Positions 22,080-54,454 of a stretch of DNA of 64,000 nt are shown piece by piece. Both the position numbers and the translations under genes were made by a program. Origin of the DNA: Escherichia coli (GTDB lineage Bacteria > Pseudomonadota > Gammaproteobacteria > Enterobacterales > Enterobacteriaceae); the NCBI RefSeq assembly GCF_051903065.1, contig NZ_CP178438.1; one strand, written 5' to 3'. Each line of letters begins with the position of its first letter. The stretch's first letter is position 1. The notes beneath the pieces are model-generated. The model made no database searches, was not told where the DNA came from, and saw only the letters and a list, made by a program, of their open reading frames with translations.

Positions 22080-22888
22080 TGCACACCTCTCCTGAAATCT
22101 ACCATACCCCACAAAAAGCCTTTATAATCAGCACATACCCTTACTTATGTTACTCAAATAGTCGCCTTAATTCTCCTCAGGGGAACGTAAATCAAGTCAC
22201 ATTTGGGGGCCTATTTAGGGGCACATCTTGGTCAATCTATTGCGAGGCCCCCAGATGCCACTGACAGCTCGACAAGTTGAAACAGCCAAACCCAAAGATA
22301 AAATTTATAAGATTGCCGATGGTGGTGGGCTCTACCTTCAGGTCAATCCTAACGGCTCAAAGTACTGGCGAATGAAGTACCACTATGCGGGGAAGGAAAA
22401 GAAACTATCATTTGGCACCTATCCAACTATTACATTGGCTGAAGCTCGCAAACGTCGGGATGAAGCCAAGAAAATACATGCCGATGGTAAAGATCCCGGT
22501 GAAGTCAAGAAAGCTGAAAATCTTGAGAAAAACCTTTCCGAAGGAAGAACTTTTGCCGCAATCGCCACCGAGTGGTACAACGCAAAAGTTTCAGGCTGGT
22601 CTGCCAGCTACGCTGATTATGTCGACAGAGCATTCAAAAATAATGTGTTTCCCTACATTGGAAACAGACCCATTAGTGAAATCGAACCTCTTGAACTTCT
22701 CGCAGTTCTTCAGCGTATCGAAAGCCGAGGAGCCTGCGAGCTAGCTAATAAAGTTCGCCAACGATGTGGTGAAGTGTTTCGGTATGCCATTGTTACAGGT
22801 CGGGCACGATACAATCCAGCTTCTGATCTGGTTATAGCAATGAAAAGCTATAAGCGAACACATTACCCTTTCCTGCTTCCTCCTGAAC

Positions 22889-23945
22889 GGCTTTGTTGAA
22901 TAAATCAGATTTCGGGTAAGTCTCCCCCGTAGCGGGTTGTGTTTTCAGGCAATACGCACGCTTTCAGGCATACCTGCTTTCGTCATTTTGTTCAGCGCTC
23001 GTACCAGGGCCATAGCCTCTGCAACCTGACCATCGTAGTCACGCAGTGTCAGTGAACCCCCGAACAGCTGTTTTACCCGGTACATCGCCGTTTCCGCTAT
23101 CGAGCGACGGTTGTAATCTGTTGTCCATTTCCACCGCGCATTACTCCCGGTCATTCGCTGATTAGCCACTGCACGGTTACGGTCTGCATATTCACCGGGC
23201 CAGTAACCCGCACCTTTTCGGGGAGGGATAAGCGCGCTGATTTTCTTACGCCGCAGTTCATCGTGACATAGCCGGGTATCGTAAGCGCCATCGGCGGCGG
23301 CTGACCTGATTTTCCGGTGGGTTTGCCGGATTAACCCGGGGAAGGCCTCTGAGTCCGTAACGTTGTTCAGCGACAGGTCAGCGCAGATGATTTCATGTGT
23401 TTTACTGTCAACGGCGAGATGCAGCTTACGCCAGATACGGCGGCGTTCCTGGCCATGCTTTTTGACTTTCCACTCGCCTTCACCGAAGACCTTCAGCCCG
23501 GTGGAATCAATTACCAGGTGTGCGATTTCACCCCGGGTGGGCGTTTTGAAACTGACATTAACCGACTTTGCCCGCCTGCTGACACAGCTGTAATCCGGGC
23601 AGCGTAGCGGAACGTTCATCAGAGAAAAAATGGAATCAATAAAGCCCTGCGCAGCGCGCAGGGTCAGCCTGAATACGCGTTTAATGACCAGCACAGTCGT
23701 GATGGCAAGGTCAGAATAGCGCTGAGGTCTGCCTCGTGAAGAAGGTGTTGCTGACTCATACCAGGCCTGAATAGCTTCATCATCCAGCCAGAAAGTTATG
23801 GAGCCACGGTTGATGAGGGCTTTATTGTAGGTGGGCCAGTTGGTGATTTTGAACTTTTGCTTTGCCACGGAACGGTCTGCGTTGTCGGGAAGATACGTGA
23901 TCTGATCCTTCAACTCAGCAAAAGTTCGATTTATTCAACAAAGCC
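22889..23945 (-). mobile_element. IS903-like element (IS5 family), 1057 bp, 18-bp terminal inverted repeats, 9-bp target duplication ctcctgaac
   Basis: Ends ggctttgttgaataaatc / gatttattcaacaaagcc; flanked by identical ctcctgaac at 22880..22888 and 23946..23954. Confidence 0.85.
22945..23913 (-). CDS. IS903-type DDE transposase (322 aa)
   Basis: ORF with ...FKITNWPTYNKALINRGSITFWLDDEAIQAWY... characteristic of IS903/IS102 transposase. Confidence 0.85.
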   Translation of the reverse strand: MKDQITYLPDNADRSVAKQKFKITNWPTYNKALINRGSITFWLDDEAIQAWYESATPSSRGRPQRYSDLAITTVLVIKRVFRLTLRAAQGFIDSIFSLMNVPLRCPDYSCVSRRAKSVNVSFKTPTRGEIAHLVIDSTGLKVFGEGEWKVKKHGQERRRIWRKLHLAVDSKTHEIICADLSLNNVTDSEAFPGLIRQTHRKIRSAAADGAYDTRLCHDELRRKKISALIPPRKGAGYWPGEYADRNRAVANQRMTGSNARWKWTTDYNRRSIAETAMYRVKQLFGGSLTLRDYDGQVAEAMALVRALNKMTKAGMPESVRIA

Positions 23946-24805
23946 CTCCTGAACTACCAGAGTTTTTATACAAACTCGAAAACTACACCGGCAGTATTGT
24001 AACCCGTGAAGCTACAAAATTGTTGATGCTCACAGGGCTGAGAACAGTAGAATTACGTATGGGGGAATGGTGTGAGATCGATTTTACCCAAAAGATATGG
24101 GAAGTTCCTCCGACCCGGATGAAAATGAGGAAGGAGCATATCGTCCCTCTGTCAGATCAGGCAATCCAGTCTCTGCAAATCCTCAAAGAACTGACTGGAA
24201 GATACAGATACATCTTTGCCGGAAGAAATGATGTTAACAGGCCTATCAGCGATGCAAGCGTCAATATGGTTTTGAAGAAGATTGGCTATGACAAAAAAGC
24301 TACCGGGCATGGATTTCGTCATACAATGAGTACTGTTCTACACGAGCAAGGATTCAATAGTGCATGGATTGAAATGCAACTTGCACATACGGACAAAAAC
24401 AGCATTCGTGGTACATACAACCATGCTCGTTACCTTGAAGGAAGACGAGAAATGATGCAATGGTACGCTGACTACCTTGATGCTCTTCGAAAAGAGTCAC
24501 CAGCTATATAATCGCTTGATTTTAAAGGCTGACTTAACGATATCCCCCTGATAGTCATTTATCAGTTATCTAATTATTAAGTCAGCCATAATCCCCTAAG
24601 TATCATTCCTTAATCAGATTCAGCACCTTGTAATACGACCGGTTAATTTAGAAAGAGACGATAGATAAACGCTTATGATGAAATACTAAGAAATTACTTC
24701 AGGCTCTATTAACTGGAGCTGTAATAGACAATAATTTAAATAACGCAATAGTTATATTTATATCTTAATATAAATTTCCACTGTATTTAAGGTAATGACT
24801 CCAAC

Positions 24806-25309
24806 TTATTGATAGTGTTTTATGTTCAGATAATGCCCGATGACTTTGTCATGCAGCTCCACCGATTTTGAGAACGACAGCGACTTCCGTCCCAGCCGTG
24901 CCAGGTGCTGCCTCAGATTCAGGTTATGCCGCTCAATTCGCTGCGTATATCGCTTGCTGATTACGTGCAGCTTTCCCTTCAGGCGGGATTCATACAGCGG
25001 CCAGCCATCCGTCATCCATATCACCACGTCAAAGGGTGACAGCAGGCTCATAAGACGCCCCAGCGTCGCCATAGTGCGTTCACCGAATACGTGCGCAACA
25101 ACCGTCTTCCGGAGCCTGTCATACGCGTAAAACAGCCAGCGCTGGCGCGATTTAGCCCCGACATAGCCCCACTGTTCGTCCATTTCCGCGCAGACGATGA
25201 CGTCACTGCCCGGCTGTATGCGCGAGGTTACCGACTGCGGCCTGAGTTTTTTAAGTGACGTAAAATCGTGTTGAGGCCAACGCCCATAATGCGGGCTGTT
25301 GCCCGGCAT
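24806..25309 (-). CDS. insB: IS1 InsB
   Basis: 167-aa [19 protein letters not shown]... Confidence 0.9.
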
Positions 25310-25503
25310 CCAACGCCATTCATGGCCATATCAATGATTTTCTGGTGCGTACCGGGTTGAGAAGCGGTGTAAGTGAACTGCAGTTGCCATGTTTTACGGC
25401 AGTGAGAGCAGAGATAGCGCTGATGTCCGGCGGTGCTTTTGCCGTTACGCACCACCCCGTCAGTAGCTGAACAGGAGGGACAGCTGATAGAAACAGAAGC
25501 CAC
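25228..25503 (-). CDS. insA: IS1 InsA
   Basis: 91-aa [43 protein letters not shown]... Confidence 0.9.
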
Positions 25504-25535
25504 TGGAGCACCTCAAAAACACCATCATACACTAA

Positions 25536-25937
<402 letters not shown>

Positions 25938-26033
25938 CATGCATCACAACAGCTCCTCATAGGCACTCAGTGGTCGATGTTCCACCTGACTGATCTGCTG
26001 CCAGAGCGGGGCGTGAGGTTCCGGTACTATCTG

Positions 26034-26330
26034 CTAGCCAGACGACACTGAGCAGAGGCGATGTGAGGCCACCAGTTTCTCATTACTGTAGATCCGCAAC
26101 TCATCGTTCAGCGATATTCGTATCGAGACTGGCTGACCACACAGCATTTCGGGAACGCTGTACTGATTACCTCCAACTTCGTTATAGCGGGTCCCAGGAC
26201 ACATGGCGGATGTCGAAGTAACTGGTATCGAAGTCTGTATCCGGTAACGGCTGCAGATGTTCCTGCTCCAGCGCGAAGCGCTGTTCCGGCGTTTCTTTGA
26301 ACTGACGAAGCTCCCATTTGTCAGCCACAT
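26034..26330 (-). pseudogene. IS21-family IstA transposase C-terminal fragment (opposite orientation to the istB fragment)
   Basis: ...YSVPEMLCGQPVSIRISLNDELRIYSNEKLVASHRL... resembles IstA C-terminus; frame disrupted upstream. Confidence 0.4.
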
Positions 26331-26616
26331 CGGCTAGCGCCAGCTAACCTATGCGGTACTGGCCTTGGTGCTAACCCGCGTTAAAGCTACCACGTTGATC
26401 AGAGCCTCTCTCCCGGAAAGTCATACTGTCTTACATATTAATCACTCAAAATAGAGTAAATAAAATCATACAACTAGAGAGTGATTATAATTGTTATTGA
26501 ACACTGGTTATCCCATTTTTGTTATATTGATCACAAAACCCTTCTTTTTATGATGATCTAAAAATAAATATTAAATATTGTGGTCAGGCCGCTAGACCAC
26601 AATAAGAGGAAATATC

Positions 26617-27906
26617 ATGAAAAGAAAAACCATGGGGTGGATTATCGTTTTTCTTCTGTTTATAGTTTACATGCTGAACTATATGGATCGTTCTGCATTA
26701 TCGATTACGGCCCCACTTATCGAAAAAGAGTTAGGCTTTAATGCTGCTGAAATGGGGATGATTTTCAGCGCATTTTTCGTTGGTTATGCTTTATTTAACT
26801 TCATTGGCGGTTGGGCCAGTGACAAAGTTGGACCCAAAACAGTATTTTTGGTTGCTGCACTGTTGTGGTCTGTTTTTTGTGGTATGACCGGTCTGGTCAC
26901 CGGATTATGGACAATGCTTGCCGTACGTGTTTTATTTGGTATGGCAGAGGGCCCGGTTAGTGCAGCAGGAAATAAAATTATTAATAACTGGATCTCGCGT
27001 AAAGAGTCGGCAACAGCTATCGGTATTTTTAGTGCTGGTTCACCACTTGGTGGCGCTATTTCTGGTCCGGTCGTTGGCTTGCTGGCAATATCACTTGGCT
27101 GGCGTCCGGCGTTTGGGATCATATTTATATTTGGCCTAGTTTGGGTATTACTGTGGTACTTCTTTGTCAGTGATAAACCGTCAAAAAGTAAACGTCTGGC
27201 AGCGGAAGAACGTGTCGATTTCGAAAACCATGACGATATTATTCTAGCCGAAGATGGTAAAGGTACACCTTCGCTTGGTTATTACATGAAGCAGCCGATG
27301 GTATGGGCGACCACGCTGGCATTTTTTAGCTATAACTATATTCTATTTTTCTTTCTTACTTGGTTTCCAAGCTATTTGAATCATTCATTACACATTGATA
27401 TTAAAGAAATTAGTATTGCAACTGTTATCCCGTGGTTTATTGGGGCAATTGGCATGGTGTTAGGTGGCGTCTGCTCTGACTTTATTTATCGTATTACGGG
27501 AAATGCCTTACTTTCTCGCCGTTTAATTCTCGGCAGTTGCCTTGCGGGGGCCGCGGTTTGTGTCGCTGTTTCCGGAACTGTTACCTCTATTGGTAGTGCG
27601 ATTACGCTGATGTCTGTTTCCTTATTCCTGCTTTATCTAACTGGACCTATTTATTGGGCTGTTATTCAGGATGTAGTGCATAAAGATAAAGTAGGTAGCG
27701 TAGGCGGTGCGATGCACGGTCTGGCAAATATTTCCGGCATTATTGGTCCATTGGTAACCGGTTTTATTGTCCAGTTCAGTGGTAAATATGATTACGCATT
27801 CTATCTTGCAGGTGCCATAGCAATCATTTCAAGTCTGCTGGTATTCATTTTTGTTAAAAATAAAGGATTGAAATTCAATGAAAGTCAAAGCTGTGTACAT
27901 CAATAA
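26617..27906 (+). CDS. MFS transporter, anion:cation symporter (sugar-acid) family
   Basis: 429-aa 12-TM ORF; N-terminus LNYMDRSALSITAPLIEKELGFNAAEMGMIFSAFF... resembles hexuronate/galactonate-type ACS transporters. Confidence 0.75.
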   Translation: MKRKTMGWIIVFLLFIVYMLNYMDRSALSITAPLIEKELGFNAAEMGMIFSAFFVGYALFNFIGGWASDKVGPKTVFLVAALLWSVFCGMTGLVTGLWTMLAVRVLFGMAEGPVSAAGNKIINNWISRKESATAIGIFSAGSPLGGAISGPVVGLLAISLGWRPAFGIIFIFGLVWVLLWYFFVSDKPSKSKRLAAEERVDFENHDDIILAEDGKGTPSLGYYMKQPMVWATTLAFFSYNYILFFFLTWFPSYLNHSLHIDIKEISIATVIPWFIGAIGMVLGGVCSDFIYRITGNALLSRRLILGSCLAGAAVCVAVSGTVTSIGSAITLMSVSLFLLYLTGPIYWAVIQDVVHKDKVGSVGGAMHGLANISGIIGPLVTGFIVQFSGKYDYAFYLAGAIAIISSLLVFIFVKNKGLKFNESQSCVHQ

Positions 27907-28903
27907 ACCTGGTGAAATTGCTACCCGTCTGGTCGATTATCCAGTAAGAAAAGATAATGAAGTTTTAATTAAAGTGGATGCAGCGGGAATTTGTGGTTCT
28001 GACATCGGTGCATTTCGTGGTACTAACCCACTGGTAACTTATCCGAGAATTATTGGACATGAAGTCACCGGGATTGTTCTGGAAACCGGTGAGGGGGTAC
28101 CACAAAATATCAAACAGGGCGACCGGGTTATTGTAGATCCCTATGTTTATTGCGGTCACTGTTATCCATGTTCTGTAGGTAGAACTAATTGCTGCGAGAA
28201 CTTAAAAGTCATCGGCGTACATATTGATGGCGCTATGCAAGAAGTGGTTTCGCATCCGGCTCACTTAATTCACAAAATTCCTGACAATGTACCGTCAGAG
28301 ATGGCGCCACTGGCTGAACCCTTAACTATTGCCCTACACGCATTACATCGAGCGCAATTGAAAGCAGGTGAACATGTCGTCATTATTGGTGCAGGCGCTA
28401 TTGGACTTATGGCGGCCCTGAGTTCGTTGAACTATAAAGCAACTCCCATTCTGGTTGATATTGTCGATGAACGGTTGCAATACGCGAAATCGCTCGGCGT
28501 ACCTTATGTAGTAAACTCCGCAAAAGCTAATGTTATTGAGGCAGTGAAAGATATTACACAAGGGACGATGGCTCAGGTTGTGGTGGAAGCCTCTGGTGCA
28601 AATAGCGCAATCAGAAGTACCCTGGATCTGGCCTCATTTGCAGGGCGTATAGCCTATACTGGTTGGCCAAAGCAGGAAACATCGTTACCAACTAATCTAA
28701 TTACCTTTAAAGAACTAGATTTACGTGGTTCCCGTACCAGTGCCGGTGAATTTGAAGAAGCCCTGCAAATGTTATCAACGCTGAATATTAATCCGGCTGA
28801 TATCGTGAGCAAAGTCGTGACAATAGATGAAGTTCCTGAGGCTGTAAAAGAGTTAGATCAATTTCCGGAACGCTATCTGAAAATTAACGTGAAATTCATT
28901 TAA
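27878..28903 (+). CDS. Zn-dependent medium-chain alcohol/polyol (sugar-acid) dehydrogenase
   Basis: 341-aa ORF with GHEVTG zinc-binding motif, CGHCYPC structural-zinc cysteines and GAGAIG Rossmann motif; overlaps transporter by 29 bp. Confidence 0.8.
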   Translation: MKVKAVYINKPGEIATRLVDYPVRKDNEVLIKVDAAGICGSDIGAFRGTNPLVTYPRIIGHEVTGIVLETGEGVPQNIKQGDRVIVDPYVYCGHCYPCSVGRTNCCENLKVIGVHIDGAMQEVVSHPAHLIHKIPDNVPSEMAPLAEPLTIALHALHRAQLKAGEHVVIIGAGAIGLMAALSSLNYKATPILVDIVDERLQYAKSLGVPYVVNSAKANVIEAVKDITQGTMAQVVVEASGANSAIRSTLDLASFAGRIAYTGWPKQETSLPTNLITFKELDLRGSRTSAGEFEEALQMLSTLNINPADIVSKVVTIDEVPEAVKELDQFPERYLKINVKFI

Positions 28904-29393: not shown

Positions 29394-30342
29394 GACGGCA
29401 TCCTGAGGTGTACTGGCAATAGCGGACACTACCATTTGTTCTTTTTTTAAGCAGCCATCTGATGATATTTTTCCCTGAAGGCTGCCGGGGAGATATTCCC
29501 CAGACGAGAGTGACGACGCTGACGATTGTAGAAAATCTCAATGTATTCCCGTATTACTGAGATGGCCTCATCCCGGCTATTAAAACGATAGTGGCTCAGG
29601 CTCTCATTTTTCAGCGTTCCCCAGAAGCTTTCCATCGGAGCGTTGTCGTAACAGTTACCTTTACGCGACATTGATGTTTTCAGACCAAACTGCTCCTGGA
29701 TGACCCGGTAATCGTATGCGCAGTACTGTGAACCTCGATCGGAGTGGTGGATTAGCCCAGCAGGTGGGCGCTGGCTCCTGAGCGCCATAAACATGGCTTT
29801 ACCTGTCAGCTCTTTTGTCATGCGCTCTCCCATGGCGTAGCCGACAATTTCGCACGTATAAACATCTTTGATGCCAGCGAGGTACAACCATCCCTCCTGT
29901 GTGGCAACATACGTCAGGTCCGCCACCCAGACCTGATTTGGTACTGTAGGAGCGAACGTCTGGTTCAGCAGATTTGGCGCAACTGGCAGATTGTGGCTCG
30001 AGTTCGTAGTCGCTCTGAACTTGCGTTTCTGCTTACAGCGTAGCCTTAGCTCCTTACGAAGACGTGCCAGTCGGTCACGACCAACGATGATGCCATTCTC
30101 TGCCAGCTCCGTCTGGAGCCGCCGGGTTCCATATGTTTCGCGAGTGCTGATATGTGCCACCTTAATCTCCAGTTTTAGCCGCTCATCACTTTGTTTTCTG
30201 TCTGAGGGGTCATGCTGTACCCAGTTGTAATAACCGCTCCTGGATACACCAAATACCTGACACATCGCTTCAATGGGAAATTGTTGTCGCCATTGTTCGA
30301 TTAACGCGTATTTTTCAGCGACTCCTGTGCAAAATACGCTGT
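29394..30342 (-). mobile_element. Right half of an IS3-family element (terminus tgaggtgtactggcaatagcggacact at 29394), including orfB 29447..30342, cut by IS30
   Basis: orfB with DDE integrase core ...HHSDRGSQY...; terminal repeat matches the IS3-family terminus at 45109. Confidence 0.7.
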
Positions 30343-31563
30343 TGTAGATTCAATCTGTCAATGCAACACCCCTTTCAATTATCTCTTTCGGTGTTTTGAA
30401 CTTCAGTGTCTTTCTCGGTCTGTTGTTTAGCTGAGCAGCAACCAGATCTAGTTCATGTTGAGTATATTGGGCAAGACATGTCTTTTTAGGAAAGTACTGC
30501 CGAATTAGCCCATTTGTGTTCTCATTTGTTCCCCGCTGCCAAGGACTCTGAGGATCGCAGAAGTAAACTTTAACGCCGGTGCTGACAGTAAATTCTAGAT
30601 GTCTGGCCAGTTCCATTCCTCTGTCCCATGTCAGTGATTTTCTGAGTTCTGACGGTAAACTCAGGAATTTGTCGGTAAGAGCCTGATTTACTGAGACAGA
30701 ATCTTTGCCCCTGAGTCTAAGGATGATCGTATAACGTGATTTTCGGTCTACAAGTGTGGCTATATGAGAGTTTTTTGTACCTAAGACTAAATCGCCCTCC
30801 CAATGCCCCAGAGAGCGTCTGTTATCGATATTTCGGGAACGTTCGTGAATTGGTGTTCCGTTCACTATGTTAATCGTACCTCTTTCGCCTTTGCGGGTAT
30901 GACGCCTGCCATGGCGAAGGCTATGCGACCGTCGCAGATGCTGTATATTCAGGTGGTGTAGCGCTTCACGGCTACGAAAGTACAGCGTTTTATAAATTGT
31001 CTCAGGTGATATTCGCAGCGTTTTTTGACGTGGTTTTGTTCGCCTTAACCATCCTGATATTTGCTCTGGAGACCATTTCATCTCCAGCTTTTCCAGAACA
31101 AGCTTTCGCAATGGTAAATTTTGATCCAGTAAGCACGGTTTTGGCCTTTTCGCCATTCTGTTGGCTCGGTTATTAGCATCAACAGCTTTGTAATAGCGTC
31201 TGCCCCGATTACGCTGAACTTCACGTGAGATCGTCGAAGGACTGCGATTCAGCGCAGTAGCTATCGCACGAATGCTCATTTTGGCTGACAAACCAGCTCG
31301 TATCTCCTCGCGCTCAGACAGTGTCAGGTGAGCTACAGCCCGCTTACGCTCATGGGGTTTTATGCCGCCAGTATCCCTTAACATAGTGAAGATCGTTCCG
31401 GGTTTTGAACCCAGGATATTCGCTATTTCACTGAAGCCTGTTCCGTTCTTCCATAGTTCAAAAACAGAGGCTTTTTCCTCTGCTGTAAATGTTCGTCTCA
31501 TTCAAAAAACCTCTGCAACCCCATGTTTTCACATAACTGTTGCGTTGACCAATTGAATCTACA
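30343..31563 (-). mobile_element. IS30 copy 1 (1221 bp) with intact 383-aa transposase (30350..31501)
   Basis: Ends tgtagattcaat...; transposase MRRTFTAEEKASVFELWKNGTGFSEIANILG... identical to copy 2. Confidence 0.9.
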
Positions 31564-31877
31564 ACGGCTTTTTTTAATATGTCCCGTTCGTCGGTAACCC
31601 GCTTCAGCTCTTTCTGGAGACGGCGGATCTCGGCCTGAGCATCTGACTGTTCTTTATTAGTGGAAGAATCCGGACCGTACTTCTTTATCCAGGAGTAAAG
31701 GCTGTGGGTGGTGATATTGAGACGTGTTGCAACGCTGGCAACAGAATAACCGCGATCAACAACCTGTTTGACTGCTTCAATTTTAAACTCTTCGGGATAA
31801 CGCTTACCGCTCATGGGCACCTCTCTTTAAGTCATCTTAAATGACTCTGAGGTGTCTATTAAACCTGTGGCGATTCA
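31564..31877 (-). mobile_element. Left part of an IS3-family element: orfA (31564..31814, ends ...ERDILKKA) interrupted by IS30
   Basis: orfA MSGKRYPEEFKIEAVKQVVDRGYSVASVATRL... with HTH; frameshift heptamer aaaaaag 4 bp before IS30 junction. Confidence 0.65.
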
Positions 31878-45108: not shown

Positions 45109-45435
45109 TGAGGTAGCCTGAGTTTAACGGACACTCCTTCCTGAAATAGAATGGCATCAGAAGGAGCTAATAATGAGCAGAAAAACCCAACGTTACTCTA
45201 AAGAGTTCAAAGCCGAAGCTGTCAGAACGGTTCTTGAAAATCAACTTTCGATCAGTGAAGGCGCTTCCCGATTATCTCTTCCTGAAGGCACTTTAGGACA
45301 ATGGGTTACCGCCGCCAGAAAAGGGCTCGGTACTCTTGGTTCCCGCACGGTGGCTGAACTGGAATCTGAAATTCTGCAACTGCGTAAGGCGTTAAATGAA
45401 GCTCGCCTTGAGCGAGATATATTAAAAAAAGCCGT
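45109..45435 (+). mobile_element. Left part of an IS3-family (IS600-like) element: terminus tgaggtagcctgagtttaacggacactcc, orfA 45173..45435 (ends ...ERDILKKA) interrupted by IS30
   Basis: orfA MSRKTQRYSKEFKAEAVRTVLENQLSISEGASRL...; terminus matches the one at 29394. Confidence 0.7.
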
Positions 45436-47572
<2,137 letters not shown>

Positions 47573-47968: not shown

Positions 47969-48736
47969 GGTAATGACTCCAACTTATTGATAGTGTTTTA
48001 TGTTCAGATAATGCCCGATGACTTTGTCATGCAGCTCCACCGATTTTGAGAACGACAGCGACTTCCGTCCCAGCCGTGCCAGGTGCTGCCTCAGATTCAG
48101 GTTATGCCGCTCAATTCGCTGCGTATATCGCTTGCTGATTACGTGCAGCTTTCCCTTCAGGCGGGATTCATACAGCGGCCAGCCATCCGTCATCCATATC
48201 ACCACGTCAAAGGGTGACAGCAGGCTCATAAGACGCCCCAGCGTCGCCATAGTGCGTTCACCGAATACGTGCGCAACAACCGTCTTCCGGAGCCTGTCAT
48301 ACGCGTAAAACAGCCAGCGCTGGCGCGATTTAGCCCCGACATAGCCCCACTGTTCGTCCATTTCCGCGCAGACGATGACGTCACTGCCCGGCTGTATGCG
48401 CGAGGTTACCGACTGCGGCCTGAGTTTTTTAAGTGACGTAAAATCGTGTTGAGGCCAACGCCCATAATGCGGGCTGTTGCCCGGCATCCAACGCCATTCA
48501 TGGCCATATCAATGATTTTCTGGTGCGTACCGGGTTGAGAAGCGGTGTAAGTGAACTGCAGTTGCCATGTTTTACGGCAGTGAGAGCAGAGATAGCGCTG
48601 ATGTCCGGCGGTGCTTTTGCCGTTACGCACCACCCCGTCAGTAGCTGAACAGGAGGGACAGCTGATAGAAACAGAAGCCACTGGAGCACCTCAAAAACAC
48701 CATCATACACTAAATCAGTAAGTTGGCAGCATCACC
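47969..48736 (-). mobile_element. IS1 copy 2 (768 bp; insB 47984..48487, insA 48406..48681), no target-site duplication
   Basis: Same ends as copy 1; flanks catcagacc vs ggctgttta do not match. Confidence 0.9.
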
Positions 48737-48890: not shown

Positions 48891-48909
48891 ATTCCTGCAG
48901 GGGACACCA
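48891..48909. repeat. attR: 19-bp direct repeat of the argW 3' end (attcctgcaggggacacca) marking the island boundary
   Basis: Exact match to 22061..22079. Confidence 0.8.
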
Positions 48910-49350
48910 GATACCCTTCAAACCAAATCTACCTTCATCCCGTAAACGATGGGTTTGGCAGCACACTTGCCCTATATCTACTCATTTTTACTGCAACAGG
49001 TTGAAATCTCAGCACTGTCAGAAAGCGCTGATGACTAAACAGCCCTGGGCCGGGCGATGTAACCATCACACAGAATCCTGATAGCGAAATATGGCGTGAC
49101 TCGATACTTCACTCCGCAATGCATTCCTTGATGAATTCGCAGGCCCGTGATACACGCGACAGGTCGCTGAATGACGACAATGTCCTGGAAATCAGCGAAC
49201 CGTGTATCCGGAGTACATTTGAGCGACTGTACCAGAACATGAATGAGGTGTTTGGATTAGGCGATTATTAGCAGGGCTAAGCATTTTACTATTATTATTT
49301 TCCGGTTGAGGGATATAGAGCTATCGACAACAACCGGAAAAAGTTTACGT

Positions 49351-50598
49351 CTATATTGCTGAAGGTACAGGCGTTTCCATAACTATTTGCTCGCGTTTTT
49401 TACTCAGGAAGAAAATGCCAAATAGCAACATCAGGCAGACAATACCCGAAATTGCGAAGAAAACTGTCTGGTAGCCTGCGTGGTCAAAGAGTATCCCAGT
49501 CGGCGTTGAAAGCAGCACAATCCCAAGCGAACTGGCAATTTGAAAACCAATCAGAAAGATCGTCGACGACAGGCGCTTATCAAAGTTTGCCACGCTGTAT
49601 TTGAAGACGGATATGACACAAAGTGGAACCTCAATGGCATGTAACAGCTTCACTAATGAAATAATCCAGGGGTTAACGAACAGCGCGCAGGAAAGGATAC
49701 GCAACGCCATAATCACAACACCGATAAGTAATGCATTTTTTGGCCCTACCCGATTCACAAAGAACGGAATAATCGCCATGCACAGCGCTTCGAGTACCAC
49801 CTGGAATGAGTTGAGATAACCATACAGGCGCGTTCCTACATCGTGTGATTCGAATAAACCTGCATAAAAGACGGGAAAAAGTTGTTGATCAAAAATGTTA
49901 TAGAAAGACCACGTCCCAACAATAAATATGACGAAAACCCAGAAGTTTCGATCCTTGAAAACTGCGATAAAATCCTCTTTTTTTACCCCTCCCGCATCCG
50001 CCGCTACGCACTGGTGATCCTTATCTTTAAAACACATGTTGATCATCATAAATACAGCGCCAAATAGCGAGACCAACCAGAAGTTGATATGGGGACTGAT
50101 ACTAAAAAATATGCCGGCAAAGAACGCGCCAATAGCATAGCCAAAAGATCCCCAGGCGCGCGCTGTTCCATATTCGAAATGAAAATTTCGCGCCATTTTT
50201 TCAGTGAAGCTGTCAAGCAAACCGCAGCCCGCCAGATAACCCAGGCCAAAAAAGAGCGCACCCAGAATTAAACCTACAGAAAAATTGCTTTGCAGTAACG
50301 GTTCATAAACGTAAATCATAAACGGTCCGGTCAAGACCAGGATGAAACTCATACACCAGATGAGCGGTTTCTTCAGACCGAGTTTATCCTGAACGATGCC
50401 GTAGAACATCATAAATAGAATACTGGTAAACTGGTTGACCGAATAAAGTGTACCTAATTCCGTCCCTGTCAACCCTAGATGTCCTTTCAGCCAAATAGCG
50501 TATAACGACCACCACAGCGACCAGGAAATAAAAAAGAGAAATGAGTAACTGGATGCAAAACGATAGTACGCATTTCTGAATGGAATATTCAGTGCCAT
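49351..50598 (-). CDS. cscB: CscB sucrose:H+ symporter (MFS, 415 aa)
   Basis: ORF MALNIPFRNAYYRFASSYSFLFFISWSLWWSLYAIWLKGHLGL... matches recalled CscB. Confidence 0.85.
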   Translation of the reverse strand: MALNIPFRNAYYRFASSYSFLFFISWSLWWSLYAIWLKGHLGLTGTELGTLYSVNQFTSILFMMFYGIVQDKLGLKKPLIWCMSFILVLTGPFMIYVYEPLLQSNFSVGLILGALFFGLGYLAGCGLLDSFTEKMARNFHFEYGTARAWGSFGYAIGAFFAGIFFSISPHINFWLVSLFGAVFMMINMCFKDKDHQCVAADAGGVKKEDFIAVFKDRNFWVFVIFIVGTWSFYNIFDQQLFPVFYAGLFESHDVGTRLYGYLNSFQVVLEALCMAIIPFFVNRVGPKNALLIGVVIMALRILSCALFVNPWIISLVKLLHAIEVPLCVISVFKYSVANFDKRLSSTIFLIGFQIASSLGIVLLSTPTGILFDHAGYQTVFFAISGIVCLMLLFGIFFLSKKREQIVMETPVPSAI

Positions 50599-50669
50599 AA
50601 TTACCTGCCTGTCGTTAAAAAATTCACGTCCTATTTAGAGATAAGAGCGACTTCGCCGTTTACTTCTCA

Positions 50670-51584
50670 CTATTCCAGTTCTTGTCGACATGGCAGCGCT
50701 GTCATTGCCCCTTTCGCCGTTACTGCAAGCGCTCCGCAACGTTGAGCGAGATCGATAATTCGTCGCATTTCTCTCTCATCTGTAGATAATCCCGTAGAGG
50801 ACAGACCTGTGAGTAACCCGGCAACGAACGCATCTCCCGCCCCCGTGCTATCGACACAATTCACAGACATTCCAGCAAAATGGTGAACTTGTCCTCGATA
50901 ACAGACCACCACCCCTTCTGCACCTTTAGTCACCAACAGCATGGCGATCTCATACTCTTTTGCCAGGGCGCATATATTCCGATCGTTCTGTGTTTTTCCA
51001 CTGATAAGTCGCCATTCTTCTTCCGAGAGCTTGACGACATCCGCCAGTTGTAGCGCCTGCCGCAAACACAAGCGGAGCAAATGCTCGTCTTGCCATAGAT
51101 CTTCACGAATATTGGGATCGAAGCTGACAAAACCTCCGGCATGCCGGATCGCAGTCATCGCAGTAAATGCGCTGGTACGCGAAGGCTCGGCAGACAACGC
51201 AATTGAACAGAGATGTAACCATTCGCCATGTCGCCAGCAGGGCAAGTCTGTCGTCTCTAAAAAAAGATCGGCACTGGGGCGGACCATAAACGTAAATGAA
51301 CGTTCCCCTTGATCGTTCAGATCGACAAGCACCGTGGATGTCCGGTGCCATTCATCTTGCTTCAGATACGTGATATCGACTCCCTCAGTTAGCAGCGTTC
51401 TTTGCATTAACGCACCAAAAGGATCATCACCGACCCGACCTATAAACCCACTTATTCCGCCTAATCTGGCGATTCCCACCGCAACGTTAGCTGGCGCGCC
51501 GCCAGGACAAGGCAGTAGGCGCCCGTCTGATTCTGGCAAGAGATCTACTACCGCATCCCCTAAAACCCATACTTTGGCTGACAT
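50670..51584 (-). CDS. cscK: CscK fructokinase (304 aa)
   Basis: pfkB-family sugar kinase ORF with GAGDAF motif, between cscB and cscA. Confidence 0.85.
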   Translation of the reverse strand: MSAKVWVLGDAVVDLLPESDGRLLPCPGGAPANVAVGIARLGGISGFIGRVGDDPFGALMQRTLLTEGVDITYLKQDEWHRTSTVLVDLNDQGERSFTFMVRPSADLFLETTDLPCWRHGEWLHLCSIALSAEPSRTSAFTAMTAIRHAGGFVSFDPNIREDLWQDEHLLRLCLRQALQLADVVKLSEEEWRLISGKTQNDRNICALAKEYEIAMLLVTKGAEGVVVCYRGQVHHFAGMSVNCVDSTGAGDAFVAGLLTGLSSTGLSTDEREMRRIIDLAQRCGALAVTAKGAMTALPCRQELE

Positions 51585-51799
51585 TTTTTTCCCTTAAATT
51601 CATCTGACTTACGCATAGTGATAAACCTCTTTTTCGCAAAATCGTCATGGATTTACTAAAACATGCATATTCGATCACAAAATGTCATAGTTAACGTTAA
51701 CATTTGTGATATTCATCGCATTTATGAAAGTAAGGGACTTTATTTTTATAAAAGTTAACGTTAACAATTCACCAAATTTGCTTAACCAGGATGATTAAA

Positions 51800-53233
51800 A
51801 TGACGCAATCTCGATTGCATGCGGCGCAAAACGCACTAGCAAAACTTCATGAGCACCGGGGTAACACTTTCTATCCCCATTTTCACCTCGCGCCTCCTGC
51901 CGGGTGGATGAACGATCCAAACGGCCTGATCTGGTTTAACGATCGTTATCACGCGTTTTATCAACATCACCCAATGAGCGAACACTGGGGGCCAATGCAC
52001 TGGGGACATGCCACCAGCGACGATATGATCCACTGGCAGCATGAGCCTATTGCGCTAGCGCCAGGAGACGATAATGACAAAGACGGGTGTTTTTCAGGTA
52101 GTGCTGTCGATGACAATGGTGTCCTCTCACTTATCTACACCGGACACGTCTGGCTCGATGGTGCAGGTAATGACGATGCAATTCGCGAAGTACAATGTCT
52201 GGCTACCAGTCGGGATGGTATTCATTTCGAGAAACAGGGTGTGATCCTCACTCCACCAGAAGGAATCATGCACTTCCGCGATCCTAAAGTGTGGCGTGAA
52301 GCCGACACATGGTGGATGGTAGTCGGGGCGAAAGACCCAGGCAACACGGGGCAGATCCTGCTTTATCGCGGCAGTTCATTACGTGAATGGACTTTCGATC
52401 GCGTACTGGCCCACGCTGATGCGGGTGAAAGCTATATGTGGGAATGTCCGGACTTTTTCAGCCTTGGCGATCAGCATTATCTGATGTTTTCCCCGCAGGG
52501 AATGAATGCCGAGGGATACAGTTACCGAAATCGCTTTCAAAGTGGCGTAATACCCGGAATGTGGTCGCCAGGACGACTTTTTGCACAATCCGGGCATTTT
52601 ACTGAACTTGATAACGGGCATGACTTTTATGCACCACAAAGCTTTGTAGCGAAGGATGGTCGGCGTATTGTTATCGGCTGGATGGATATGTGGGAATCGC
52701 CAATGCCCTCAAAACGTGAAGGCTGGGCAGGCTGCATGACGCTGGCGCGCGAGCTATCAGAGAGCAATGGCAAACTCCTACAACGCCCGGTACACGAAGC
52801 TGAGTCGTTACGCCAGCAGCATCAATCTATCTCTCCCCGCACAATCAGCAATAAATATGTTTTGCAGGAAAACGCGCAAGCAGTTGAGATTCAGTTGCAG
52901 TGGGCGCTGAAGAACAGTGATGCCGAACATTACGGATTACAGCTCGGCACTGGAATGCGGCTGTATATTGATAACCAATCTGAGCGACTTGTTTTGTGGC
53001 GGTATTACCCACACGAGAATTTAGACGGCTACCGTAGTATTCCCCTCCCGCAGCGTGACACGCTCGCCCTAAGGATATTTATCGATACATCATCCGTGGA
53101 AGTATTTATTAACGACGGGGAAGCGGTGATGAGTAGTCGAATCTATCCGCAGCCAGAAGAACGGGAACTGTCGCTTTATGCCTCCCACGGAGTGGCTGTG
53201 GTGCAACATGGAGCACTCTGGCAACTGGGTTAA
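51800..53233 (+). CDS. cscA: CscA sucrose-6-phosphate hydrolase / invertase (GH32)
   Basis: ORF ...HLAPPAGWMNDPNGLIWFNDRYHAFYQHHP... with the WMNDPNG GH32 motif; start set at MTQSRLH. Confidence 0.85.
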   Translation: MTQSRLHAAQNALAKLHEHRGNTFYPHFHLAPPAGWMNDPNGLIWFNDRYHAFYQHHPMSEHWGPMHWGHATSDDMIHWQHEPIALAPGDDNDKDGCFSGSAVDDNGVLSLIYTGHVWLDGAGNDDAIREVQCLATSRDGIHFEKQGVILTPPEGIMHFRDPKVWREADTWWMVVGAKDPGNTGQILLYRGSSLREWTFDRVLAHADAGESYMWECPDFFSLGDQHYLMFSPQGMNAEGYSYRNRFQSGVIPGMWSPGRLFAQSGHFTELDNGHDFYAPQSFVAKDGRRIVIGWMDMWESPMPSKREGWAGCMTLARELSESNGKLLQRPVHEAESLRQQHQSISPRTISNKYVLQENAQAVEIQLQWALKNSDAEHYGLQLGTGMRLYIDNQSERLVLWRYYPHENLDGYRSIPLPQRDTLALRIFIDTSSVEVFINDGEAVMSSRIYPQPEERELSLYASHGVAVVQHGALWQLG

Positions 53234-53240
53234 CATAATA

Positions 53241-54236
53241 TCAGGTGGAACAACGGATCAACAGCGGGCAAGGGATCCGCGTCACACTTCCCCCTTCACG
53301 ACCTTCAATAATATGCAATGCAGCTTCCCGCCCGATAATGTCATGTGGAAGCTGAATTGTGGTCAGCGGCGGTAAAAACAGATGCCCGACGCCAACCAGA
53401 TTATCAAAGCCCATTACGGCGACATCCTGCGGGATACGTACCCCCTTAGCCAGGAGAACCTGATAAGCCACAAAGGCTGCGCGATCGTTACCACATATCA
53501 GAACATCAAAATCTGGTTTGCCCGATTTGAAGTGGTCATTGAGTAAACTTGCGAGATCGGTGTAGTGATCATCACCTGTTGCCATGTGAAATTGTTTCAC
53601 CTCAGCCAGATCTCGTCCAGCATCACGCCAGGCCTGCTCAAATCCCTGCCGACGATACCCTGTTGCCAACGCACTTTCCGGTAGCCAGAAGCATAACGGT
53701 TGACGATAGCCCGCCGCGAGCAAATGCTGTGTTGATTCATATTGTGCAGTGTAATCATCAGGGATATAACTGGGTAACGCTGGGTCATCCGCCACACAGT
53801 TCGCCAATACAATATTTTCACCATACAGAGACTCAGGTAGCGTGATATGTCGCAGCCCCATTGTAGTATAGATAATGCCATCCGGACGGTGGGCAAGCAG
53901 CTGACGTGCCGCGCGGGCAGCGTCATCTTCAGAAAAAATATTGATTAAAAAACTATTCCAGCCGAACTCGCTGGCGGTTTGCTCAATGGCAAGCAGAATA
54001 TCAACAGAGAAAGGAGTGGTAGCAGTGTCCTGCGCCAGCACGGCGAGAGTCGACGGCTTACGTCCTTGAGCGCGCATCTTACGGGCGGAAAGATCAGGAA
54101 CATAATTCAGGGTCTGGATTGCCTGCAATACGCGGTCACGCGTTGCAGGACGCACAGATTCTGCATTATGCATCACCCGGGAGACTGTCATCATCGACAC
54201 TCCCGCCAGGCGTGCGACATCCTTTAATGAAGCCAT
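53241..54236 (-). CDS. cscR: CscR LacI-family sucrose operon repressor (start at MASLKDVARLAGVS)
   Basis: N-terminal HTH MASLKDVARLAGVSMMTVSRVMHN plus periplasmic-binding-like effector domain; track ORF over-extended upstream. Confidence 0.8.
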   Translation of the reverse strand: MASLKDVARLAGVSMMTVSRVMHNAESVRPATRDRVLQAIQTLNYVPDLSARKMRAQGRKPSTLAVLAQDTATTPFSVDILLAIEQTASEFGWNSFLINIFSEDDAARAARQLLAHRPDGIIYTTMGLRHITLPESLYGENIVLANCVADDPALPSYIPDDYTAQYESTQHLLAAGYRQPLCFWLPESALATGYRRQGFEQAWRDAGRDLAEVKQFHMATGDDHYTDLASLLNDHFKSGKPDFDVLICGNDRAAFVAYQVLLAKGVRIPQDVAVMGFDNLVGVGHLFLPPLTTIQLPHDIIGREAALHIIEGREGGSVTRIPCPLLIRCST

Positions 54237-54454
54237 ACCCAAGCCGTTTGCCGTAAAACGGGCACTGTAGCAGAAACAGACGTCACTGGCGAGATCCAAC
54301 GCCCTATCACCTGACACGGCAATACAATAAAAAATAACAATAATTCCCGGACAATTGTCCCCAATTCCGCCTCTGTTCTCGCCAACGAGTAACCATATAG
54401 GCAAGTAAGTAAAACATGCCAACTGGCATCGCCAACCTGGAGAAGAAAATATAA

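What the first reader, a model, noticed from the sequence alone, without database searches (positions are those of the whole stretch)
22255..24511. Island integrase inactivated by a clean IS903 insertion with 9-bp target duplication
The P4-type integrase reading frame is continuous across the insertion once the 1057-bp IS903 (22889..23945) and one copy of ctcctgaac are removed. This is a simple recent insertion that would abolish excision, locking the island at argW. The precise duplication lets the ancestral 408-codon int gene be reconstructed exactly.
Basis: seen in the sequence. Interest (0 to 1): 0.45.

Follow-up and report, generated by a model that had tools for sequence, protein, structure and literature searches.

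The report
IS903B insertion splitting argW island integrase
A common 1,057-bp jumping gene (IS903B) has landed cleanly in the integrase gene of an already decayed genomic island next to the argW tRNA gene of an E. coli clone; it is real and exactly reconstructable, but an ordinary event.

Summary
A 1,057-bp IS903-group element lies at 22889..23945. It has perfect 18-bp terminal inverted repeats and a perfect 9-bp duplication, CTCCTGAAC. Removing 22889..23954 restores an uninterrupted integrase ORF.

Corrections:
- The restored gene is 1,191 nt, 396 aa (397 codons with the stop), not 408 codons.
- The element is the IS903B isoform.

The restored gene is 100% identical to intact integrase genes annotated next to argW in other E. 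coli. It has the P4-type domain architecture and is 44% identical to P4 Int. The insertion falls in codon 212, so the DNA-binding N-terminal half is separated from every catalytic residue.

"Locking the island" is only partly supported:
- Both 19-bp att cores survive (22061, 48891).
- Compared with a 51.7-kb relative, this 26.8-kb island has also lost about 29 kb next to two IS1 copies, including the only AlpA-type candidate excision factor.
- The two identical, directly repeated IS1 copies could still delete most of the island without integrase.

The allele is clonal. It is on 9 public contigs and in two complete genomes, where the same IS later made a 4.75-kb adjacent deletion. Other lineages carry the same integrase gene knocked out by a Y222* nonsense mutation. 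This is a known kind of event and of low interest.

The parts
22005..22079 (+). argW, tRNA-Arg(CCU), the integration target of the island
   Evidence: ARAGORN. yfdC lies upstream at 20997..21929.
22061..22079 (+). attL core: 19-bp direct repeat ATTCCTGCAGGGGACACCA at the 3' end of argW
   Evidence: Exact repeat search. It overlaps the KplE1 core CTGCAGGGGACACCAT (PMC2951348). In L007 and L008 the homology to the window starts exactly here.
22255..22888 (+). 5' part of the integrase gene: codons 1-211 plus the first base of codon 212. It encodes the Arm-DNA-bind_3 and central domains. The disrupted ORF runs on to a stop at 22899 (...PPERLC*).
22880..22888 (.). Left copy of the 9-bp target-site duplication, CTCCTGAAC
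22889..23945 (-). IS903B (IS5 family, IS903 group), 1,057 bp. The 18-bp inverted repeats are at 22889-22906 and 23928-23945. The transposase is on the minus strand, 22945..23868 (307 aa, GTG start) or 22945..23913 (322 aa, the TTG start that PGAP annotates).
23946..23954 (.). Right copy of the 9-bp target-site duplication, CTCCTGAAC
23955..24511 (+). 3' part of the integrase gene: the rest of codon 212 through the stop. It holds the whole catalytic domain (R241, H330, R333, H356, Y366).
24791..25558 (.). IS1 copy 1, without a target duplication. It replaces about 15.3 kb present in the CRE1540 version of the island.
47969..48736 (.). IS1 copy 2, identical to copy 1 and in direct orientation, without a target duplication. 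It replaces about 13.4 kb of the CRE1540 version, including the AlpA-family gene.
48891..48909 (+). attR core: second copy of ATTCCTGCAGGGGACACCA, the right end of the 26.8-kb island
   Evidence: The virtual empty site (21780-22079 joined to 48910-49250) is contiguous in 1,415 of 5,426 genomes.

Best explanation
A single IS903B element transposed into codon 212 of the P4-type tyrosine integrase gene of a 26.8-kb genomic island integrated at argW. The event was an ordinary staggered-cut insertion that duplicated 9 bp of target (CTCCTGAAC).

The insertion separates the arm-binding and core-binding N-terminal half (211 residues plus RLC) from the entire catalytic domain. No active integrase can be made from this locus, so integrase-mediated attL x attR excision is lost unless another integrase acts in trans. 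That last step is inferred.

The event happened in the ancestor of a small E. coli clone in which IS903B has multiplied. It is one of several IS-linked lesions in an island that was already decaying or was decaying in parallel. The same IS copy stayed active afterwards, deleting adjacent island DNA in sister strains.
For: Shown directly:
- Exact element boundaries, inverted repeats and target duplication.
- The restored 1,191-nt ORF is 100% identical, in one piece, to intact annotated integrase genes. 265 of 5,426 genomes hold at least 80% of the gene, 243 of them at 99% identity or more.
- Pfam finds Arm-DNA-bind_3, Phage_int_M and Phage_integrase. The protein is 44% identical to P4 Int over its full length, E 4e-114.
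- The insertion is at nucleotide 634, codon 212, upstream of all catalytic motifs.
- The IS is 100% identical to IS903B copies on many plasmids. Its transposase scores 357.6 bits against NF033579, cut-off 140. It differs at 2 of 307 residues from the Rts1/Tn2680 IS903B transposase.
- att cores are present at 22061 and 48891, and the empty site is contiguous in 1,415 genomes.
- Strains 23CRST031 and 23CRST027 share the left junction. In 23CRST031, 9,948 bp are identical, window 23948-28696 is deleted flush with the IS end, and a second IS903B sits in its own 9-bp duplication.
- The truncated 214-aa product is on 9 public contigs.

From the literature:
- IS903 is 1,057 bp with a 9-bp duplication and makes adjacent deletions (PMC12670165; PMC11708052).
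- Excision of the argW prophage KplE1 needs IntS plus its directionality factor TorI (PMC2951348).
Against: - No assembly I could reach other than the window holds the right junction. It therefore rests on the window sequence plus the perfect duplication.
- Loss of excision is inferred, not measured.
- An integrase elsewhere in the genome with the same argW core specificity might act in trans. In sublineages, a P22/lambdoid prophage and a P4-like satellite sit in tandem at argW.
- The target flanks match the published IS903 preference WTTYA-N9-TRAAW at only 5 of 10 positions. That is a preference, not a requirement.
Confidence: 0.9

Rival explanations
1. The integrase was already functionally irrelevant when the IS arrived. 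The island had lost its AlpA-type excision or activation factor and about half of its DNA through IS1-associated deletions. On this reading the IS903B insertion was a neutral hit on a dispensable gene, not the event that locked the island.
For: - The 51.7-kb CRE1540 version carries a 68-aa Phage_AlpA protein (PF05930, 35.6 bits, cut-off 21). It has no homologue in the window.
- Both IS1 copies lack target duplications and replace 15.3 kb and 13.4 kb of that version.
- The right-hand IS1 junction is shared with the two sister genomes, so it is at least as old as their split.
- The same integrase gene carries a Y222* nonsense mutation in all 10 loci read from other lineages. Loss of this integrase is therefore tolerated.
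Against: - No genome has the IS1 deletions together with an intact integrase gene. The order of events is unresolved.
- The two gene halves show zero substitutions against intact alleles, so there is no sign of long prior decay.
- Whether this island needs the AlpA-type protein for excision has not been tested.
Confidence: 0.4
2. The arrangement is not a simple insertion. It would instead come from recombination between IS903B copies, from a composite transposon, or from an assembly artefact.
For: - The clone carries about 20 IS903B-containing places per chromosome, so IS-IS recombination is possible in principle.
- Draft assemblies break inside the IS.
Against: - A perfect 9-bp duplication and exact restoration of a known gene are the signature of a primary insertion.
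- There is only one IS903B copy in the window.
- The left junction is reproduced in 9 independent contigs and 2 complete genomes.
Confidence: 0.02
3. The truncation is not just a loss. The retained N-terminal arm-binding and core-binding fragment (211-221 aa) is kept because it still binds attL and the integrase promoter. It would act as a repressor or as a dominant-negative factor towards elements using argW.
For: - Two independent lesions, IS903B at codon 212 and Y222*, cut the protein at almost the same domain boundary. Both leave the Pfam arm and central domains intact.
- At argW-intS, the integrase represses its own promoter through arm-type sites that overlap attL (PMC2951348).
Against: - There are only two events.
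- The truncated alleles are identical to the intact allele elsewhere, so there is no signal of selection.
- No expression or binding data exist.
- Tandem integrations at argW still occurred in strains carrying the allele.
Confidence: 0.05

Closest known systems
IS903B (IS903 group, IS5 family), first described in Tn2680 of plasmid Rts1
   Same: - 1,057 bp, 18-bp terminal inverted repeats, 9-bp target duplication and a single DDE transposase.
- 100% identical to copies annotated as IS903B on many enterobacterial plasmids.
- The transposase differs at 2 of 307 residues from the Rts1 copy.
   Different: - 28 substitutions and 2 indels (97.2% identity) against the Rts1/Tn2680 copy.
P4 integrase and the argW-specific integrases IntS (KplE1/CPS-53), Sf6 Int and HK633 Int
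   Same: - Same three-domain architecture.
- 44% identical to P4 Int and about 48-49% identical to Sf6 and HK633 Int.
- Same argW 3'-end core, CTGCAGGGGACACCA.
- The integrase gene sits directly next to attL, as with argW-intS.
   Different: - It is a distinct island integrase, below 50% identity to any phage integrase in the collection.
- The island cargo is not a prophage. It is an IS-ridden island carrying an autotransporter, an MFS transporter and an alcohol dehydrogenase.
The intact form of this island, for example in E. coli CRE1540 (NZ_CP019051.1, 2905727-2957406)
   Same: - Same integrase gene. The 846 bp from the insertion site through the 3' half and the 280 bp downstream of it are 100% identical.
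- Same att cores.
- About 20 kb of shared cargo at 99.8-99.96% identity.
   Different: - CRE1540 has an uninterrupted integrase gene and a 51.7-kb island.
- That island includes a TerB-N/ATPase/helicase cluster, an AlpA-family gene, a GTPase, Ag43 and a YeeU-type antitoxin module. All of these are missing here.
IS903 adjacent deletions (classical IS903 behaviour)
   Same: In the sister strain 23CRST031, the DNA from the right IS end (23945, plus 0-2 bp) to window 28696 is gone while the IS itself is retained. This fits the adjacent deletions described for IS903.
   Different: The deletion is seen in the sister genomes, not in the window itself.

Membership tests
IS903 group / IS903B (IS5 family) | Length of 1,057 bp | tested here: met
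   22889..23945 is 1,057 bp. The literature gives 1,057 bp for IS903 (PMC12670165).
IS903 group / IS903B (IS5 family) | Perfect 18-bp terminal inverted repeats, GGCTTTGTTGAATAAATC | tested here: met
   The first 18 bases of the two ends are identical in reverse complement. That 18 bp is the IS903 value is from my own knowledge.
IS903 group / IS903B (IS5 family) | 9-bp target-site duplication | tested here: met
   CTCCTGAAC on both sides. The second copy in 23CRST031 also has a 9-bp duplication. The literature agrees.
IS903 group / IS903B (IS5 family) | Single DDE transposase of the IS5 family | tested here: met
   Pfam DDE_Tnp_1_5 (E 2.9e-40) and DDE_Tnp_1 (E 5.9e-33). NCBIfam NF033579 scores 357.6 bits against a cut-off of 140.
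IS903 group / IS903B (IS5 family) | Isoform-level identity to a reference IS903B copy. The ISfinder convention, from my own knowledge, is at least 95% nucleotide or at least 98% amino-acid identity. | tested here: met
   97.2% nucleotide identity and 2 of 307 amino-acid differences against the Rts1/Tn2680 copy. PGAP names identical copies an IS903B family transposase. It was not compared with the Tn903 IS903 or with IS102, which were not available.
IS903 group / IS903B (IS5 family) | Preferred target motif WTTYA-N9-TRAAW (a preference, not a defining feature) | tested here: not met
   GCTTC-N9-TACCA matches at 5 of 10 positions.
P4-type (arm-domain) tyrosine integrase | N-terminal Arm-DNA-bind_3 (DUF4102) domain, central SAM-like domain and C-terminal Phage_integrase domain | tested here: met
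   PF13356 (E 3.7e-28), PF22022 (E 1.3e-33) and PF00589 (E 3e-26), all above their cut-offs, on the restored protein.
P4-type (arm-domain) tyrosine integrase | Full-length similarity to P4 Int | tested here: met
   44% identity over 408 aligned positions, E 4e-114.
P4-type (arm-domain) tyrosine integrase | Catalytic R...H-x-x-R...H...Y residues | tested here: met
   R241, H330, R333, H356 and Y366 were located by motif and align with the P4 Int residues. The catalytic lysine is inferred to lie in MKMRKEHIVPL.
P4-type (arm-domain) tyrosine integrase | Integration at the 3' end of a tRNA gene, with a duplicated core | tested here: met
   The 19-bp core is at 22061 and 48891. The empty site exists in 1,415 genomes.
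P4-type (arm-domain) tyrosine integrase | Recombinase activity (integration and excision) | not testable with these tools
   Needs attB/attP PCR or a recombination assay.

The most novel reading that the evidence does not exclude
This argW island integrase has been inactivated independently at least twice: by IS903B at codon 212 here, and by a Y222* nonsense mutation in all ten loci read from other lineages. Both lesions cut at the same domain boundary and leave the arm-binding and core-binding half intact. This could reflect selection to immobilise the island while keeping a DNA-binding fragment that still acts at attL or on the integrase promoter. The alternative is plain neutral decay.
Probability: 0.07. 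Interest if true: 0.35.

Novelty: already known. Interest (0 to 1): 0.12.

Why it matters
The finding matters little beyond book-keeping. It gives an exact, dated-by-descent marker for one E. coli clone undergoing an IS903B expansion: an integrase::IS903B junction, followed by an IS-adjacent deletion in sister strains. It also illustrates step by step how a tRNA-linked island decays and becomes fixed through IS activity. Two practical points follow for annotation. The two integrase fragments should be called one pseudogene of a 396-aa protein. The island's cargo can still be lost through IS1-IS1 recombination or IS903B adjacent deletion, even without an integrase.

Tried and rejected
- **Both junctions in one genome.** I looked for a complete E. 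coli genome holding both junctions. None of 5,426 has them, so the source genome is not in that collection.
- **Right junction via the 163-aa ORF.** I tried to find the right junction through the exact 163-aa C-terminal ORF. The look-up was not specific. It returned the Y222* nonsense alleles instead.
- **Order of the IS1 deletions and the IS903B insertion.** I searched both IS1 junctions. The left junction is in no genome. The right junction is only in the two sister genomes. The order stays unresolved.
- **AlpA-type gene in the window.** A tblastn search with the CRE1540 AlpA-type protein found nothing. Three small hypothetical proteins in the shared part of the island showed no excisionase-like Pfam domain.
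- **Second integrase in the window.** None was found.
- **IS903 target preference.** The site is a poor match, 5 of 10 positions.
- **Records not available.** Accession AP004237 was not held, so NC_003905 was used instead. Moritz and Welch 2006 on the argW-dsdCXA island (PMC1698345) was not held.
- **Not done.** I ran no metagenome or GTDB scan for the right junction. The cost was not justified for an ordinary IS insertion.

Full report
**1. The observation**

- The inserted element is 22889..23945, 1,057 bp.
- Its two ends are perfect 18-bp inverted repeats, GGCTTTGTTGAATAAATC.
- The 9 bp on each side (22880-22888 and 23946-23954) are both CTCCTGAAC. This 9-mer occurs nowhere else on either strand of the window.
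- Removing 22889..23954 gives an uninterrupted ORF from ATG 22255 to TAA 24511.

One number is wrong. The restored gene is 1,191 nt, which is 396 aa or 397 codons with the stop, not 408 codons. The RefSeq annotation of the intact gene in strain CRE1540 is also 1,191 nt.

**2. The inserted element**

The minus strand of the element carries one ORF, 22945..23868 from a GTG start (307 aa). PGAP annotates it from a TTG start at 23913 (322 aa).
- Pfam finds the DDE_Tnp_1_5 and DDE_Tnp_1 domains.
- NCBIfam finds the IS5-family equivalog NF033579 at 357.6 bits, against a cut-off of 140.
- The whole element is 100% identical to copies on many plasmids of Citrobacter, Salmonella and E. coli. All are annotated "IS5-like element IS903B family transposase".
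- Against the copy in Tn2680 of plasmid Rts1, where IS903B was first described (reference in PMC12670165), it is 97.2% identical in DNA. The transposases differ at 2 of 307 residues.

It is therefore an IS903B isoform of the IS903 group. "IS903" is right only in the loose sense. The size and the 9-bp duplication are the published values for the group. The target flanks, GCTTC...TACCA, match the published preference WTTYA-N9-TRAAW at only 5 of 10 positions, so this is not a preferred site. The window holds only this one copy.

**3. The interrupted gene**

The restored protein has the Pfam domains Arm-DNA-bind_3 (residues 3-88), Phage_int_M (100-193) and Phage_integrase (207-371).
- It is 44% identical to P4 Int over its full length, E 4e-114.
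- It is about 48-49% identical to the integrases of Sf6, HK633 and related phages.

"P4-type" is therefore justified. The insertion lies after nucleotide 634, inside codon 212.
- The disrupted 5' ORF encodes 211 native residues plus RLC.
- The catalytic residues R241, H330, R333, H356 and Y366 are all encoded downstream of the IS. They have no start codon or promoter of their own.
- No other integrase is encoded in the window.

**4. The restored gene is a real gene**

Used as a query, the restored 1,191-nt gene matches in one piece in 265 of 5,426 complete E. coli genomes. 243 of these matches are at 99% identity or more, and many are at 100%. With the 2,601-bp region as query, many genomes give a match that collapses to exactly 1,535 bp at 100% identity. 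That is the empty site with one copy of the 9-mer. The two halves carry no substitution relative to intact alleles, so there has been no detectable decay since the insertion.

**5. The island**

- argW, tRNA-Arg(CCU), is at 22005..22079, downstream of yfdC.
- Its last 19 bases, ATTCCTGCAGGGGACACCA, recur once, at 48891..48909. They overlap the 16-nt core of the argW prophage KplE1 (PMC2951348).
- Joining 21780-22079 to 48910-49250 gives a sequence that is contiguous in 1,415 of 5,426 genomes, the best at 100% identity.

The island is thus a discrete 26.8-kb insertion, and both att cores are intact.

**6. The island is a deletion derivative**

Strain CRE1540 carries the same integrase gene, uninterrupted, at the head of a 51.7-kb island bounded by the same cores. 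Aligning it with the window shows two replacements.
- About 15.3 kb next to the integrase gene is replaced by IS1 at 24791-25558.
- About 13.4 kb at the far end is replaced by IS1 at 47969-48736.

Neither IS1 has a target duplication. The two copies are identical and in direct orientation.

The far-end segment of CRE1540 includes a 68-aa Phage_AlpA-family protein (PF05930, 35.6 bits against a cut-off of 21). It has no homologue in the window. Proteins of this family, and directionality factors in general, are needed for or stimulate excision in related systems. The example is TorI with IntS at argW. That this particular island needs its AlpA-type protein is an inference.

**7. How old and how widespread the insertion is**

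- No complete genome holds both junctions.
- Two complete genomes from Ecuador, 23CRST031 and 23CRST027, share the left junction. Each has about 20 places matching the query that contains the IS, against a species median of 1.
- In 23CRST031, 9,948 bp up to the right end of the IS are 100% identical to the window. The sequence then resumes at window 28697. The 4.75 kb from the IS end onwards is missing, namely the 3' part of the integrase gene, IS1, an MFS transporter gene and most of an alcohol dehydrogenase gene. A further IS903B sits at window 31788-31796 in its own 9-bp duplication.
- This is the adjacent-deletion behaviour described for IS903. It shows that the window holds the ancestral, simple-insertion state.
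- The right-hand IS1 junction is shared only with these two genomes. The left IS1 junction is in no genome. The order of the IS1 deletions and the IS903B insertion therefore cannot be resolved.
- The exact 214-aa truncated product is on 9 public contigs. Draft contigs end inside the IS.
- On two of these contigs, another element lies directly upstream of the integrase gene: a P4-like satellite (L007) or a P22/lambdoid prophage (L008). Homology to the window begins exactly at the att core, at 22061 and 22065. This is tandem occupancy of argW in sublineages that carry the allele.

**8. An independent knock-out of the same gene**

Looking up the 163-aa 3' ORF returned many assemblies; the index lists it in 2,989 blocks. 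All ten loci read have the same 1,191-nt gene with a single change, C666A. This turns TAC into TAA, giving Y222*, ten codons downstream of the IS903B site. Loss of this integrase is thus recurrent and tolerated.

**9. Verdict**

The mechanism is an ordinary IS903B transposition that inactivates a P4-type island integrase. The reading that this locks the island is only partly supported, for three reasons.
- The island also lacks its only AlpA-type gene and about half of its DNA.
- It can still lose 22.4 kb by recombination between the direct IS1 copies.
- In sister strains it has already lost DNA through IS903B adjacent deletion.

Nothing here is new in kind. The element, the integrase, the island and even the left junction are already in annotated public genomes.

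Noticed in passing
L010-L019 (integrase gene, e.g. L010:5302-6492); corresponds to window codon 222, about 23984-23986: In all ten loci read from other lineages, the same integrase gene carries one substitution, C666A (TAC to TAA, Y222*). Many of these are 5.6-5.7-Mb genomes with a lambdoid prophage upstream. The index lists the resulting 163-aa ORF in 2,989 blocks. This is an independent knock-out ten codons from the IS903B site.
   Followed up: partly
window 24791-25558 and 47969-48736: Two 100% identical IS1 copies lie in direct orientation. Neither has a target duplication. They replace 15.3 kb and 13.4 kb of the CRE1540-type island and bracket 22.4 kb of the remaining island. They are substrates for integrase-independent deletion.
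   Followed up: partly
L001 (NZ_AP045800.1, strain 23CRST031) 9947-14104; window 23946-28696 and 31788-31796: A sister genome shows a 4.75-kb deletion flush with the right end of this IS903B, plus an extra frameshifted IS903B with a 9-bp duplication. About 20 IS903B-containing places per chromosome suggest an IS903B expansion in this clone.
   Followed up: partly
L007:1-5806 and L008:1-5810: In assemblies carrying the same integrase::IS903B allele, another element is integrated in tandem at argW directly upstream of the island. L007 has a P4-like satellite (AlpA, P2-type capsid protein, ASH, DUF5375, primase). L008 has a P22/lambdoid prophage (Kil, CIII, Rad52, SSB, Abc2). The junctions fall exactly at the att core.
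   Followed up: partly
window 30337-31589 and 45410-46662: There are two IS30-containing segments of 1,253 bp in inverted orientation, with 4 mismatches between them. The second is not at this position in the CRE1540 island.
   Followed up: no
L002:29706-35530 (CRE1540; absent from the window): The 15.3 kb missing next to the integrase gene includes a three-gene cluster (TerB N-terminal domain protein, ATP-binding protein, DEAD/DEAH helicase) and an HsdR-N domain protein. This may be a defence module carried by the intact island.
   Followed up: no
window 48910-54422: Right of attR lie a DUF4942 gene fragment and what look, by ORF size and order matched to the CRE1540 annotation, like the csc sucrose genes (MFS transporter, kinase, sucrose-6-phosphate hydrolase, LacI-type regulator). 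They sit where K-12 has dsdC and dsdX, as far as I recall. A published study reports this argW-dsdCXA region as highly variable; I saw only the citation, because the paper itself was not held.
   Followed up: no
window 20967-22888 against L002:44580-46501: yfdC, argW and the 5' part of the integrase gene are only 98.75% identical to CRE1540 (24 mismatches in 1,922 bp). The 3' half and its downstream flank are 100% identical. Other genomes match the whole region at 100%. I did not map where the mismatches fall.
   Followed up: no
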